A stretch of 64,000 bases of DNA from Escherichia coli (GTDB taxonomy: Bacteria > Pseudomonadota > Gammaproteobacteria > Enterobacterales > Enterobacteriaceae). A model generated the notes under the pieces. It saw only the letters and a program-made list of their open reading frames with translations. It ran no database searches and had not been told where the DNA came from. The position numbers and the translations under genes were made by a program. Shown here piece after piece: positions 1,700 to 7,432 of the stretch (positions are counted from its first letter, which is position 1; every line of letters starts with the position of its first letter). The stretch is from assembly GCF_044324875.1 (NCBI RefSeq), contig NZ_CP172185.1, one strand, 5' to 3'.

Positions 1700-1825
1700 T
1701 GCCGGATGCGGCGTGAACGCCTTGTCCGGCCTACAAAACCGAAACGTATGTAGGCCTGGTAAGGCGCGTCAGCGTCGCATCAGGCAGTTGTTGTCGGATA
1801 AGGCGTGAAAGCCTTATCCGTCCTG
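1700..1825. repeat. REP / BIME palindromic units in the malE-malF intergenic region
   Basis: GCCGGATGCGGCGTGAACGCCTTGTCCGGCCTAC and TAGGCCTGGTAAGGCGCGTCAGCGTCGCATCAGGC imperfect palindromes; this intergenic region is the classical REP example. Confidence 0.85.
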
Positions 1826-3401: not shown

Positions 3402-4292
3402 ATGGCAATGGTCCAACCGAAATCGCAAAAAGCACGTTTGTTTATTACTCACCTGCTACTGCTACTTTTTATCGCGGCGATTATGTTCCCGCTGCTGATG
3501 GTCGTCGCTATCTCACTGCGCCAGGGGAACTTTGCGACCGGCAGCCTGATCCCGGAGCAAATCTCCTGGGATCACTGGAAACTGGCATTAGGTTTTAGCG
3601 TGGAACAGGCTGATGGTCGCGTTACACCGCCGCCGTTTCCGGTACTGCTATGGCTGTGGAACTCGGTAAAGGTCGCCGGGATTTCCGCGATTGGCATTGT
3701 GGCGCTCTCCACCACCTGCGCCTACGCTTTCGCCCGTATGCGCTTTCCAGGCAAAGCGACGCTGCTGAAAGGAATGCTGATTTTCCAGATGTTCCCGGCA
3801 GTACTTTCACTGGTCGCGTTGTATGCGTTGTTTGATCGTCTGGGTGAGTACATTCCATTCATTGGCCTGAATACACACGGCGGCGTAATTTTCGCGTATC
3901 TGGGTGGGATTGCGCTGCATGTCTGGACCATCAAAGGCTATTTCGAAACCATCGACAGTTCGCTGGAAGAAGCGGCGGCGCTGGATGGTGCGACACCGTG
4001 GCAAGCCTTCCGCCTTGTCTTGTTACCGCTGTCAGTACCGATTCTGGCGGTGGTGTTCATCCTGTCGTTTATCGCTGCCATTACTGAAGTTCCGGTCGCG
4101 TCGCTGTTACTGCGTGACGTAAATAGCTACACCCTGGCCGTGGGGATGCAGCAATACCTCAACCCGCAAAACTACCTGTGGGGTGACTTTGCTGCCGCTG
4201 CCGTGATGTCTGCATTACCGATCACCATCGTCTTCTTGCTGGCTCAACGCTGGCTGGTCAACGGCCTGACGGCAGGTGGTGTGAAAGGTTAA
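3402..4292 (+). CDS. malG: Maltose ABC transporter permease MalG (296 aa)
   Basis: Translation [40 protein letters not shown]...; 14 bp after malF with AGGGAGA RBS-like sequence. Confidence 0.97.
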
Positions 4293-4362
4293 AGATGTTG
4301 TTCTGCCAATGTTATGCCGCTGCACCCTCAACTTACGTTATCCCAACTTGTGACTGTTATTC

Positions 4363-4387
4363 GGCGCTCCACGGAGCGCCTTTTTTT
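4363..4387 (+). terminator. Rho-independent terminator downstream of malG (GGCGCTCC-ACG-GAGCGCC followed by T7)
   Basis: Perfect 8-bp GC-rich stem with 3-nt loop followed by TTTTTTT on the plus strand; overlaps the psiE stop codon. Confidence 0.7.
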
Positions 4388-4796
4388 ACTCCCGCTTCAA
4401 CCGTTTCGAATTACATAACCACAGGGTGATCACCAGCAACAGGATCGCTGCCGAGTAGATCAACACATCCAGTGGCGATTTATGATCGACGATGATCAAG
4501 CGCACAATGGCGGTGATCCCAATATAGACAAAGTAACGTAGCGGGAAGTGAAAACCGGACTGAAAGTACTTCACAATCAGCGCGATAAATTCGAAATAGA
4601 GAAAGTAAACCACCAGTCCTTCTACCAGCTCATATTTACTGGTTTGTTCTGGCGCGAACAGCACATCAGCCAGATGCACCGTTTCTTTGCCGAGGAAGAC
4701 AACCAAAATCAGGCCGAGGCACAGCAGGCCAAGATTGAGTACGGTCTGCAAAATGGTGGAGATAAACTCCACGCGCGGACGAGAGAGTGACGTCAT
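4386..4796 (-). CDS. psiE: Phosphate-starvation-inducible inner membrane protein PsiE (136 aa)
   Basis: Translation [47 protein letters not shown]... matches PsiE; correct length. Confidence 0.93.
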
Positions 4797-5010
4797 AGCA
4801 GTACCTCCTTCACAGTGGCGAGCTTCCTGTATAACGCAAAAATGTGACGGAGATCTATATTTTTTGTGTATGTTTTGTTCAGCTCAATTAAGTGGGCATC
4901 TCCCATCAACGTCGCATCTGACAAAACATACAGCCAAAAAAAATCACCCATTCAGGTGATTCCCAGCCACCAGCAATGCGCGAAAAATCGACAATGTTCC
5001 TCTGGAACAA

Positions 5011-5289
5011 ATGAAACGTAACCTGATAAAGGTGGTAAAAATGAAGCCTTATTTTGCTGCTTTGATGTTATCAGTCTCTGCTCTTCCTGCTTATGCTGGT
5101 CCGCTCGGTACTGCTGATAAAACCGACCTACCGCAAAGCAATGTCTCCAGCCCAATGATGGCCCAGTCGCTCAGGCAACCAGACCTGCAACCAATATCGA
5201 CGGACAGGAAGACAGAATGTTTTCGCCTTTACACACCAGATCGCAAACCGGGGGTGAACTGCGTTCCTGATGGCTCGACAGGCCATTAA
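5011..5289 (+). CDS. yjbT: Small putative secreted protein YjbT (92 aa) with N-terminal signal peptide
   Basis: ORF MKRNLIKVVKMKPYFAALMLSVSALPAYAGPLGT...; signal-peptide-like N-terminus; position between psiE and yjbH as in K-12. Confidence 0.55.
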   Translation: MKRNLIKVVKMKPYFAALMLSVSALPAYAGPLGTADKTDLPQSNVSSPMMAQSLRQPDLQPISTDRKTECFRLYTPDRKPGVNCVPDGSTGH

Positions 5290-5335
5290 GAATGAGGGTG
5301 CCAGTGAGTGCGAAAACTGGCACCTTTTCCATGAC

Positions 5336-7432
5336 TTAGCGGAAATTGACGCTACGGTCGCTGGTCATGTCATACAACTGGAACTTACGCCCAAGTTGCT
5401 GACCACCGTCACGCGTCAGCGGCGTCCAGCCAATCGCCGCACGGCTGCGTGTCGGGCCAGACGAGAAGAGATCCAACGGTACAGAGACATACACGCCTTT
5501 GGTGAAGTCCCCTTCGCCGTACTCCTCTTTCGAAACGTTGGTGATCGTGGCATAGCCGCCAACCACCACGCCGCTGTCAAAGCGTTTGGCTATTTCCAGC
5601 GTGCCGCCTTTATCCCCTGCCAGATACTGCCCGACGCTCGCTTTCACTAACACATCCTGAGCAAAAGATGGCGTCCAGTAGGCGGTCAGATGTCCGGTTT
5701 TCACGCTGTAGTCGGTGAATTTCATCATATCTTTTGCACTACGCCAGTCGCGCTGTTTAACGTAGTTGGCATCCAGACCAAACGCCCAGTTGCTGTCCAG
5801 CGGGCGATACAACACTTCTGCCCCCGCACCGCCAAACATGGTTTCGAGATAACCACCGTAGACCTGACCGTAGAAGCCGTTGCCCAGATGCTGGAAGTAG
5901 TTGGCTTGCAGGTTATTCACATAGACATCATTCTGCACATACTCGCGCACATGGGTACGAACGCGCGGTAAGTGCGAGTCCTGCGGTGGATTGGTGTAGT
6001 TAAACTTGTCGTAGTTGTTGGCAAGATTTGCAAAAAGGCTGCCAGTGGTCAGCAGATGGTCCGTCAGCCACAAATCTGCCGTTCCCATCACGCCCAGCTG
6101 ATACATGTAAAAGTTTTCCGGGCCACCGACCGACTGGTTCAGCACCGGATCGATATGGAAATCAAAGCGTGATTTGTCGATATACCAGCCCTGCTCGGTG
6201 GACTGCGGAACCACTGGCTCGACGCGTTTTTGCGCCAGCGTCGTTTCGTGGCCCAACGGCTCTCCGGCGAGATGATTTTTCAGGCTGGCGACATCGGTTT
6301 CCGTCGTCACCTGCGGCATGTTAAGGCGATTTTCCGTAATGCGGATCGTTTTGATCCCATCCGGCAGATCGTTCATCACGATCCGATTAGCACGGATGAT
6401 CCCTTCACGCGAATCACGATATTTCACCTGCTCGCCGGTGACATACAGCGTATCGCCTTTCGCCTGGATCTGCGGATCGGCCAGTCCGGCGTTGTATTTC
6501 AACAGCGTTAACTGATTCGCCACCACCGAGTGCTGCAAAATGGCATCCTGCGACTGCGGTTGATATTGCGGGCGGGCGTTATCGTTGTAAGACGGGCGCA
6601 GATCGTTAAAGTTGGTGCGCAACGTAACGCCAAACATAAAGGTGTTGCCACGTTCATAGCTAAGGTTAACGTCGGCCCAATCGGTAACGCGATAAATCGC
6701 CCCGACGTTAAACTTACTTTTTTGCTCCAGCTTCCCGGCAAAATCCTGCTGATAATTATTACCTTCATACTCCAGTTTCAGGCGCAGCGGTTGCCAGGGC
6801 GTCTGGTATTCCACGCCGCCAAACAGTGAGGCAGGACCGTGGAACATCTGGCTACCGTCGATAGATCCCGCTTGTTTGTAGCTGTTATCGCGATAGCAAT
6901 ATTTATCGCTGGCTGAACAGAGCGGATTTTTTACATTACCGCTGGTGCCCAGATATCCCCAGCCCAGGCCGAGCGTAAAATCGAACGGCCCCCAGGCTTT
7001 GCTGGCAACAAGATATTCCGCATCAAACAGCCCCGTACCGCCGATATCCCGCGCACCAACCGCCACTTGCGGCAGCCAATAACTCTCTTCCCACAAACGC
7101 AGTTTGAGATCGAAGGCTTTATCTTTATACGTTTGATCACCAGAGAACGCTTCGACGCTGCTGTACTGCCGGGTGCGCACGTCGGTGTAGCGCAGCGTTG
7201 TTTCCAGCCACGGGAAGAGTTGCACTGAAGCTGAGTAATAACGGTACTGATCGTTATCTCGATAGTTCAGGCTCAACTCCCCTTCCCGCGCCATGCGCGC
7301 GGTGGGCGTTTGTAATAATCCTACGCCACCGAAATCCGACTGCGACGGACCAATGGGCGCAGGATATGTTTCGCCGTAGCAAGCTGTGCTAATGCCCAGC
7401 GCCAGTAAGCTAAGCAGATGTCTTTTTTTCAT
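5336..7432 (-). CDS. yjbH: YjbH, GfcD-family outer-membrane lipoprotein/beta-barrel of the yjbEFGH exopolysaccharide operon (698 aa)
   Basis: 698-aa ORF with signal peptide ([20 protein letters not shown]), C-terminal F residue typical of OM beta-barrels; synteny with yjbEFG. Confidence 0.9.

What the first reader, a model, noticed from the sequence alone, without database searches (positions are those of the whole stretch)
4925..4965. Minus-strand hairpin plus T-run between psiE and yjbT
AATCACC-CATTC-AGGTGATT preceded on the plus strand by A8 gives, on the minus strand, a hairpin followed by T8. It lies upstream of psiE (minus strand) and upstream of yjbT (plus strand). It could terminate read-through from the yjbEFGH operon that runs antisense through yjbT, insulating psiE.
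Basis: seen in the sequence. Interest (0 to 1): 0.15.

Follow-up and report, generated by a model that had tools for sequence, protein, structure and literature searches.

The report
Weak strain-variable terminator hairpin upstream of psiE
A small hairpin followed by a run of T's really does sit between the E. coli genes yjbT and psiE and could weakly stop stray transcription before the psiE promoter. However, its stem is weak, its T-run is this long in only about 1% of E. coli strains, and it is an ordinary, low-interest feature.

Summary
On the minus strand, AATCACC (4961-4955), loop TGAATG and GGTGATT (4948-4942) are followed by T's down to 4936. The T8 run shares two T's with the stem, so six U's follow a 7-8 bp stem (dG -8.3 kcal/mol). 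Hairpin-plus-T-run sites of this class are rare by chance (6 in the window against 0.27 in shuffles), but this one has the weakest stem of the six.

Comparison lowers its standing. The stem is invariant across Escherichia, but so is the whole 75-nt block upstream of yjbT. The T-run is polymorphic: T8 about 1%, T7 about 23%, T6 about 16%, T5 about 57% (K-12), T4 about 2%. In K-12-type strains the stem is followed by three T's, a 13-nt insert and a REP element. Genera without yjbT have REP-type palindromes between yjbH and psiE, not a canonical terminator.

No 3' end at this locus appears in the K-12 tables I could search, but K-12 carries the weak allele and these genes are thought to be poorly expressed under those conditions.

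Best reading: a marginal, leaky Rho-independent terminator in this strain that may reduce antisense-yjbT or yjbH read-through into the psiE promoter. It is not a conserved insulator. Interest is low.

The parts
4942..4961 (-). Stem-loop: arms AATCACC / GGTGATT with a 6-nt loop. As RNA it forms 8 pairs closing a GAAU tetraloop.
   Evidence: dG is -8.3 kcal/mol. The stem is invariant in all Escherichia sequences examined.
4936..4943 (-). T8 run (A8 on the plus strand). Positions 4942-4943 belong to the stem, leaving six U's 3' of it. The run length is polymorphic, T4 to T8, across Escherichia (E. coli strains and sister species).
4894..4935 (-). Variable spacer between the hairpin and the psiE promoter. 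This strain has the REP-less allele, with a remnant GTCAGATGCGACGTTGATGG. K-12-type strains carry a 13-nt insert plus one REP here, and E. whittamii carries two REPs.
4797..4893 (-). psiE promoter block: pho-box-like CTGAACAAAACATACACAAAAA, then TATAGA, then the CRP-like TGTGA-N6-TCTAT (as read on the plus strand). It is strongly conserved across genera.
   Evidence: The motif assignments come from reading the sequence and from my own knowledge.
4962..5010 (+). Conserved yjbT upstream block, contiguous with the hairpin. It contains a GTTCC-N3-GGAAC palindrome at 4995-5007.
5297..5324 (.). Hairpin between the convergent yjbT and yjbH genes (9-bp stem GGTGCCAGT/ACTGGCACC). The T-tail (TTTTCC) is present only on the yjbT side. 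The yjbH side reads CTCATTCTT.
4386..4796 (-). psiE coding sequence (136 aa).
5011..5289 (+). yjbT as annotated (92 aa). The true start is probably the ATG at 5041.
5336..7432 (-). yjbH, the last gene of yjbEFGH and the presumed source of read-through.

Best explanation
This is a marginal, leaky Rho-independent (intrinsic) terminator on the minus strand.

RNA polymerase that has passed the yjbH stop, or that started antisense within yjbT, would transcribe AAUCACCU-GAAU-GGGUGAUU followed by UUUUUU. The hairpin would form while the weak rU:dA hybrid is in the active site, and a fraction of complexes would release at about 4936-4940. That is roughly 43 nt before the pho-box-like repeats of the psiE promoter.

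Shown here: the anatomy, the strand, the position, the rarity by chance, and the variation between strains.

Inferred: that termination actually occurs, and how efficiently.

The T8 form in this strain is the strongest natural allele. It apparently arose by G-to-T changes (T6G4, then T7G3, then T8G2). In most E. coli the U-tract is too short for the site to work as a terminator. There, and in other genera, REP-type palindromes occupy the same gap and may provide whatever barrier exists. It is therefore an opportunistic, strain-specific stop and not a conserved insulator.
For: - A hairpin directly followed by six U's lies on the correct strand.
- The class is about 20-fold enriched over shuffles (6 against 0.27). 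Of the other five sites, 4363-4380 is the malG/MalH terminator. I did not check the gene context of the remaining four.
- A d'Aubenton-Carafa-type score is just positive for this allele (+3.2) and third of the six sites. The formula is from memory.
- The yjbH-proximal hairpin lacks a U-tail on the yjbH strand, with a T-score of 1.06 against 3.27 on the yjbT side. Read-through therefore has somewhere to come from.
- The E. albertii loop change turns the U.G closing pair into C-G and leaves the stem intact.
- The stem is invariant in every Escherichia sequence examined, even in a strain that has deleted half of yjbT.
Against: - It has the weakest stem of the six sites: 3 G-C pairs, A-U pairs at the base, and -8.3 against -11.2 to -13.3 kcal/mol.
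- The U-tract is not conserved: T8 about 1%, T7 23%, T6 16%, T5 57% of E. coli. All other alleles score negative, from -7.6 to -36.
- Conservation of the stem cannot be separated from that of the whole 75-nt yjbT upstream block, and there is no covariation.
- There is no canonical terminator upstream of psiE in about 75 other species, and none beside the K. georgiana yjbT homologue.
- No 3' end near NC_000913.3 4,240,125 appears in the Adams 2021, TERMITe 2025 or SMRT-Cappable-seq 2018 tables. The TRS 2023 files, one of which was truncated when stored, also yielded nothing for E. coli. This is weak evidence, since K-12 has the T5 allele and, from my own knowledge, these genes are poorly expressed under standard conditions.
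- The built-in terminator scan did not call the site.
Confidence: 0.42

Rival explanations
1. The hairpin is incidental, with no function of its own. It is a short inverted repeat at the distal edge of the conserved yjbT upstream block. The neighbouring homopolymer drifts in length at the border of a REP insertion/deletion hot spot, and in this rare lineage it happens to look like a terminator.
For: - T-run length varies from T4 to T8 and the adjacent spacer is highly unstable, carrying 0, 1 or 2 REPs and a 13-nt indel.
- The stem is no more conserved than its flanks.
- Stability is low.
- Nothing comparable exists in other genera.
- No 3' ends are recorded in K-12 tables.
Against: - The hairpin plus T-run combination is rare by chance (0.27 expected per window).
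- The stem is perfectly invariant across Escherichia species, while both E. albertii changes within the 20-nt element fall in the loop.
- It is retained in a strain that lost the yjbT 5' half.
Confidence: 0.3
2. It is a DNA-level operator. The 20-bp perfect palindrome (7-6-7) would be the binding site of a dimeric transcription factor controlling yjbT, or psiE from a distance, and the hairpin potential would be a by-product of the dyad symmetry.
For: - It is a perfect dyad 50-70 bp upstream of the annotated yjbT ATG, or 80-100 bp from the likelier ATG at 5041.
- It lies at the edge of a block conserved across Escherichia.
- No convincing sigma-70 promoter for yjbT was found, which would fit activator dependence.
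Against: - It does not match the CRP, FNR, NtrC, Fur or NarL consensus sites that I compared by eye from memory. The half-sites are everted or mis-spaced.
- There is no second copy in the window even allowing 2 mismatches.
- It is absent upstream of the K. georgiana yjbT homologue, where a different palindrome (GTTCC-N3-GGAAC) is the conserved one.
- No binding data were found.
Confidence: 0.15
3. It is the terminator of an unannotated small cis-antisense RNA of about 65-70 nt. This RNA would start on the minus strand within the yjbT translation-initiation region, for example at TTTACC-17-TTTCAT around 5038-5010, and would carry a 5' GUUCCAGAGGAAC stem-loop and this 3' hairpin plus U-tail.
For: - The minus-strand RNA 5010-4900 folds into a 5' stem-loop plus this 3' hairpin and U-run.
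- The architecture resembles Hfq-type sRNAs.
- The block is conserved in Escherichia.
Against: - The candidate promoter matches only 8 of 12 positions by my reading and was not called by the scan.
- The fold of the 111-nt region is not unusual (z = -1.3).
- There is no Rfam match.
- No 3' end or sRNA is reported here in K-12.
- Most strains have 5 or fewer U's.
Confidence: 0.05

Closest known systems
Rho-independent (intrinsic) transcription terminators of E. coli, for example the malG/MalH terminator at window 4363-4380
   Same: A stem-loop with a 4-6 nt loop is immediately followed by a U-run, on the strand of an upstream transcription unit, in an intergenic gap ahead of the next promoter.
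   Different: - The stem is much weaker: 3 G-C pairs of 7-8, A-U pairs at the base, and -8.3 kcal/mol against -13.3 for malG.
- It lies about 375 nt beyond the nearest upstream stop codon, antisense to another gene.
- The U-tract is polymorphic and sub-threshold in most strains.
- No mapped 3' end was found.
REP/BIME elements as intergenic transcription attenuators and mRNA 3' stabilisers. The attenuation role is from my own knowledge of the BIME literature.
   Same: They occupy the same gap. K-12-type E. coli, other Escherichia species and many genera have REP-type palindromes between yjbH (or yjbT) and the psiE promoter. They could act as the same kind of barrier.
   Different: The window hairpin has no REP core. 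CTTATCCGGCCTAC is absent here, and the only near-match in the window is at 1721-1734, upstream of malF. The hairpin is single-copy, AT-rich at its base, and followed by a U-run.
Bidirectional terminators between convergent genes, for example the yjbT/yjbH hairpin at 5297-5324
   Same: A hairpin sits in a short intergenic gap and is read on both strands.
   Different: The finding's hairpin lies between divergent genes, not convergent ones. It has a U-run on one side only. On the plus strand it is followed by CCCAGCC, so it is strictly unidirectional.

Membership tests
Intrinsic (Rho-independent) terminator | Stable, usually G+C-rich stem-loop (about 5-14 bp stem, 3-8 nt loop) | tested here: inconclusive
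   The geometry fits: 7 Watson-Crick pairs plus one U.G pair, with a loop of 4-6 nt. Stability is low at -8.3 kcal/mol, with 3 G-C pairs and A-U pairs at the stem base. It is the weakest of the six sites of the class in the window.
Intrinsic (Rho-independent) terminator | U-rich tract immediately 3' of the stem | tested here: met
   In this window six U's directly follow the stem, within a T8 run. This is not general: three U's follow the stem in about 57% of E. coli, four in about 16% and five in about 23%.
Intrinsic (Rho-independent) terminator | Lies downstream of a transcription unit on the same strand | tested here: met
   It is on the same strand as yjbEFGH, about 375 nt past the yjbH stop, and the intervening hairpin lacks a U-tail on that strand. 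Whether transcripts actually reach it is not known.
Intrinsic (Rho-independent) terminator | RNA 3' ends map to the U-tract in vivo or in vitro | not testable with these tools
   No 3' end is listed at NC_000913.3 4.2400-4.2401 Mb in the Adams 2021, TERMITe 2025 or SMRT-Cappable-seq 2018 tables. The TRS 2023 files, one truncated when stored, also yielded nothing for E. coli. Those data are for K-12, which carries the T5 allele and where, from my own knowledge, these genes are poorly expressed. No data exist for a T8 strain.
Intrinsic (Rho-independent) terminator | Hairpin and U-tract both maintained in relatives, ideally with compensatory changes | tested here: not met
   The stem is invariant, so there is no covariation, apart from one U.G to C-G change in E. 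albertii. The U-tract varies from T4 to T8. The element is absent outside Escherichia.
REP / BIME element | Member of the dispersed GC-rich palindromic repeat family with the conserved REP core | tested here: not met
   There is no REP core in 4936-4961, and the element is single-copy per genome. The REP is a separate element inserted next to it in K-12-type strains.
Known RNA families (Rfam 15) | Match to a curated covariance model | tested here: not met
   No match with E-value up to 1 in window 4000-6000 on either strand.
Transcription-factor operator (dyad-symmetric site) | Demonstrated protein binding, or a match to a known motif, or recurrence at co-regulated promoters | not testable with these tools
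   There is no recurrence in the window. Comparison with consensus sites by eye found no fit, but those consensus sequences are from memory. No binding data were found.

The most novel reading that the evidence does not exclude
The hairpin and U-run could be the 3' end of an unannotated, Escherichia-specific cis-antisense small RNA of about 65-70 nt (roughly 5003 to 4936, minus strand). It would overlap the yjbT upstream region, including the annotated start codon at 5011, and would control yjbT. Natural T-run alleles (T5 to T8) would then tune its termination and Hfq binding between phylogroups.
Probability: 0.04. Interest if true: 0.35.

Novelty: new member of a known kind. Interest (0 to 1): 0.08.

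Why it matters
It matters little. If it works, it is one more weak intrinsic terminator shielding a regulated promoter (psiE) from antisense or read-through transcription.

The only mildly instructive point is evolutionary. The same intergenic gap is filled by interchangeable barrier elements in different lineages. These are a hairpin whose U-tract lengthens by point mutation in some B2-type strains, one or two REPs in other E. coli and Escherichia species, and other palindromic repeats in other genera.

It also shows that a terminator call made on one strain's sequence may not transfer to K-12.

Tried and rejected
- **Published 3' ends or TSSs.** I searched the supplements of Adams 2021, TERMITe 2025, SMRT-Cappable-seq 2018 and TRS 2023 and found nothing for this locus. 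The TRS hits were from another organism. Supplements of Dar and Sorek 2018, Choe 2022, Conway 2014 and the 2025 3'-seq comparison are not held, and Thomason 2015 is not held.
- **Literature on yjbT with psiE.** No paper mentions both. The one relevant yjbT mention, an FlhDC gSELEX study, concerns a site inside yjbH.
- **Rfam.** No hits.
- **Relic of an ancestral yjbH terminator split off by the yjbT insertion.** Rejected. Species lacking yjbT have unrelated REP-type sequence right after yjbH.
- **Part of a mobile yjbT cassette.** Rejected. The K. georgiana homologue lacks the hairpin.
- **Covariation test.** Impossible, because the stem is invariant.
- **Mechanical ORFs touching the hairpin.** The 52-aa ORF at 4793-4951, which starts in the loop and ends in an ATGA overlap with psiE, contains the psiE promoter and is destroyed in REP alleles. 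The 67-aa ORF at 4952-5155 is antisense to yjbT. PGAP "hypothetical protein" calls run across the REP in K-12-type strains. I rejected all of these as spurious on context alone.
- **Rho loading between yjbH and the hairpin.** The C/G ratio runs from 0.5 to 1.3 with no clear C-rich, G-poor stretch. This is not informative.
- **Known operator motifs.** CRP, FNR, NtrC, Fur and NarL consensus sites, compared by eye from memory, do not fit.

Full report
**What is there**

The window is E. coli. It is 100% identical over 1.1 kb to isolate AF39, NZ_OZ547136. The local genes are:

| Gene | Coordinates | Strand |
|---|---|---|
| malG | 3402-4292 | + |
| psiE | 4386-4796 | - |
| yjbT | 5011-5289 | + |
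| yjbH | 5336-7432 | - |

The reported inverted repeat is real. AATCACC (4942-4948) and GGTGATT (4955-4961) are perfectly complementary and separated by CATTCA. The A8 run is 4936-4943, and its last two bases are the outermost stem pairs.

Read on the minus strand, the RNA is GGGAAUCACCUGAAUGGGUGAUUUUUUUUGGCUGU. The hairpin proper has 7 Watson-Crick pairs plus a U.G pair closing a GAAU tetraloop, at -8.3 kcal/mol. Six U's follow it. The 36-nt context folds at -11.1 kcal/mol with z = -3.6. That value includes three G.U pairs into the U-run, which are irrelevant to termination.

**Is it more than chance?**

I counted perfect stems of at least 7 bp, with loops of 3-8 nt, followed by at least 6 T in 8 nt. 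The window has 6 such sites on the two strands, against 0.27 +/- 0.51 in 100 dinucleotide-preserving shuffles. The combination is therefore not a chance product.

Among those six, this site has the fewest G-C pairs (3) and the weakest hairpin, -8.3 against -11.2 to -13.3 kcal/mol. A d'Aubenton-Carafa-type score gives +3.2, just above the threshold and third of the six. The formula is from memory and I used modern energy parameters, so it is only indicative. The tool's own scan did not list the site. I infer that its G-T-tolerant stem extension consumes the first T's of the run.

**Context for the proposed role**

The hairpin directly after yjbH (5297-5324, 9-bp stem) carries a T-tail only in the yjbT direction (TTTTCC). 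On the yjbH strand it is followed by CTCATTCTT, with a T-score of 1.06. Polymerase leaving yjbH could therefore plausibly continue antisense through yjbT.

The finding's hairpin would be the next obstacle. It ends about 43 nt before the pho-box-like repeats (CTGAACAAAACATACACAAAAA, about 4893-4872) of the psiE promoter. I assigned those repeats from the sequence and from my own knowledge.

**Comparison within E. coli**

K-12 MG1655 has the identical hairpin at NC_000913.3 about 4,240,105-4,240,124. There it is followed by only TTT, a 13-nt insert (GAATTACCGGCTT) and a REP element, giving an intergenic region of 269 bp against 214 bp here.

About 37% of 5,426 complete E. coli genomes carry the REP-less allele of this window. 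The rest match only from the A-run onward.

I then ran a query that starts exactly at the A-run, so that the alignment start reports the run length. An evenly spaced sample of 60 of 5,414 genomes gave:

| T-run | Genomes in sample | Approximate share | Examples |
|---|---|---|---|
| T8 | 1 | about 1% | this window; consistent with the 60 genomes at 99% identity or more |
| T7 | 14 | 23% | UTI89, ST131 |
| T6 | about 9 | 16% | |
| T5 | 34 | 57% | K-12, O157 |
| T4 | 1 | about 2% | |

The REP-less alleles form a substitution series: T6G4, T7G3, T8G2. All alleles other than T8 score negative, from -7.6 to -36.

The SNPs that occur in the 75-nt block between the hairpin and yjbT all lie outside the hairpin. 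The hairpin also survives a deletion of the yjbT 5' half in strain GPEC1031.

**Comparison across species**

I fetched psiE loci from 80 species.

- yjbT is present only in Escherichia, plus a 53%-identical homologue in Kluyvera georgiana.
- Where the spacer is short, yjbH is followed directly by psiE on the same strand. That spacer of 111-360 bp is filled with REP-type or CCCTCTCCC...GGGAGAGGG palindromic repeats, then the strongly conserved psiE core promoter.
- A relaxed scan of the 450 nt upstream of psiE found essentially no hairpin plus T-run in any of these species.
- In Escherichia species the stem is invariant. E. albertii changes two loop bases, and one of these converts the U.G closing pair to C-G.
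- The whole yjbT-proximal block is equally conserved. The T-run varies from T4 to T6 in these species, and the zone just downstream holds 0, 1 or 2 REPs.
- The K. georgiana yjbT homologue keeps the Shine-Dalgarno/ATG region and a GTTCC-N3-GGAAC palindrome but has no counterpart of this hairpin.

**Experimental record**

No 3' end or Rho-termination region is listed in the 4.239-4.241 Mb interval of MG1655 in Adams et al. 2021 (PMC7815308). None is listed for this locus in the TERMITe (PMC12207403) or SMRT-Cappable-seq (PMC6131387) supplements, and the TRS 2023 (PMC10687069) files, one truncated when stored, yielded nothing for E. coli. Other datasets were not held.

This is weak negative evidence. 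K-12 has the T5+REP allele, and from my own knowledge yjbEFGH and psiE are poorly expressed under standard conditions. As a side point, Fitzgerald et al. 2023 (PMC10294691) found no PhoB binding or regulation at psiE.

**Interpretation**

The most likely reading (about 0.4) is a marginal, leaky intrinsic terminator that is best developed in this rare T8 lineage. It could release part of any antisense-yjbT or yjbH read-through before the psiE promoter.

It is not a conserved, selected insulator. In most E. coli the U-tract is too short, and REP-type elements occupy the same gap. From my own knowledge of the BIME literature, such elements can attenuate transcription.

The rivals are:

| Rival | Confidence |
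|---|---|
| Incidental hairpin at the edge of the conserved yjbT upstream block, beside a drifting homopolymer | about 0.3 |
| Dyad-symmetric protein-binding site for yjbT control; no motif match, and absent in K. georgiana | about 0.15 |
| Terminator of a small cis-antisense RNA; no supporting data | about 0.05 |

**Verdict**

If functional, this is a new but ordinary member of a known kind. Interest is low.

Noticed in passing
window 4293-4390: xylE is absent in this strain. The malG 3' UTR and its terminator are identical to the K-12 region annotated as sRNA MalH up to the T-run at 4381-4387. They then join directly to the psiE 3' end, so the psiE stop codon (4386-4388) overlaps the terminator's T-run. 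About 1.8 kb present in K-12 is missing between two T-runs. Roughly a third of sampled E. coli genomes share this arrangement (5 of 15 rows). That is similar to the 37% carrying the REP-less psiE-yjbT allele, so the two may form one haplotype.
   Followed up: partly
window 5011-5045: yjbT probably starts at the second ATG (5041), not the annotated 5011. A strong Shine-Dalgarno sequence, AAGGTGG, lies 7 nt upstream of 5041. The product then begins MKPYFAALMLSVSALPAYA, which looks like a signal peptide. The K. georgiana homologue conserves AAGGTGGTAAAAATG and lacks the 10-aa extension.
   Followed up: partly
window 4995-5007; L031 about 2333-2346: A GTTCC-N3-GGAAC palindrome upstream of yjbT is conserved between E. 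coli and the distant K. georgiana yjbT homologue, although the surrounding sequence has diverged. It is a better candidate for a yjbT regulatory site than the finding's hairpin.
   Followed up: no
window 4894-4935; K-12 locus L001 about 1330-1440: The gap between the hairpin and the psiE promoter is a REP insertion/deletion hot spot. This allele has no REP, only the remnant GTCAGATGCGACG. K-12 has one REP plus a 13-nt insert, and E. whittamii has two inverted REPs.
   Followed up: yes
loci L006-L080 (yjbH-psiE spacers): yjbT is an Escherichia-specific insertion between yjbH and psiE. Where the spacer is short in other genera, it is filled with REP-type repeats or tandem CCCTCTCCC...GGGAGAGGG palindromic units. 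Several Citrobacter, Kluyvera and Kosakonia species have 0.6-1.4 kb of other inserted sequence there. In K. georgiana this includes a 151-aa ORF that I did not characterise.
   Followed up: partly
window 4797-4893 and all psiE loci: The psiE core promoter (AAACATAAACAAAAAATATAGATCYCCGTCACATTTTTGCGTTATACAGG) is almost invariant across many genera. [quoted passage not shown] What maintains this block is unclear.
   Followed up: no
L002 1140-1283; L090 49-177: In K-12-type strains PGAP annotates short "hypothetical proteins" (WP_000487766.1, WP_001298876.1) on the psiE strand, running across the hairpin and the REP element. They are absent in REP-less strains and are probably spurious calls.
   Followed up: no
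L092 (E. coli GPEC1031): This strain has a deletion that removes the yjbT promoter-proximal region and the 5' half of the gene. The breakpoint is after CAGCAATG, which corresponds to about window 4978. The hairpin and psiE promoter remain intact, and yjbT is annotated as a pseudogene fragment.
   Followed up: partly
window 1721-1734: The only REP-core-like match in the window (CTTGTCCGGCCTAC, one mismatch) lies about 95 nt upstream of malF. From my own knowledge, this corresponds to the classical malE-malF REP position.
   Followed up: no
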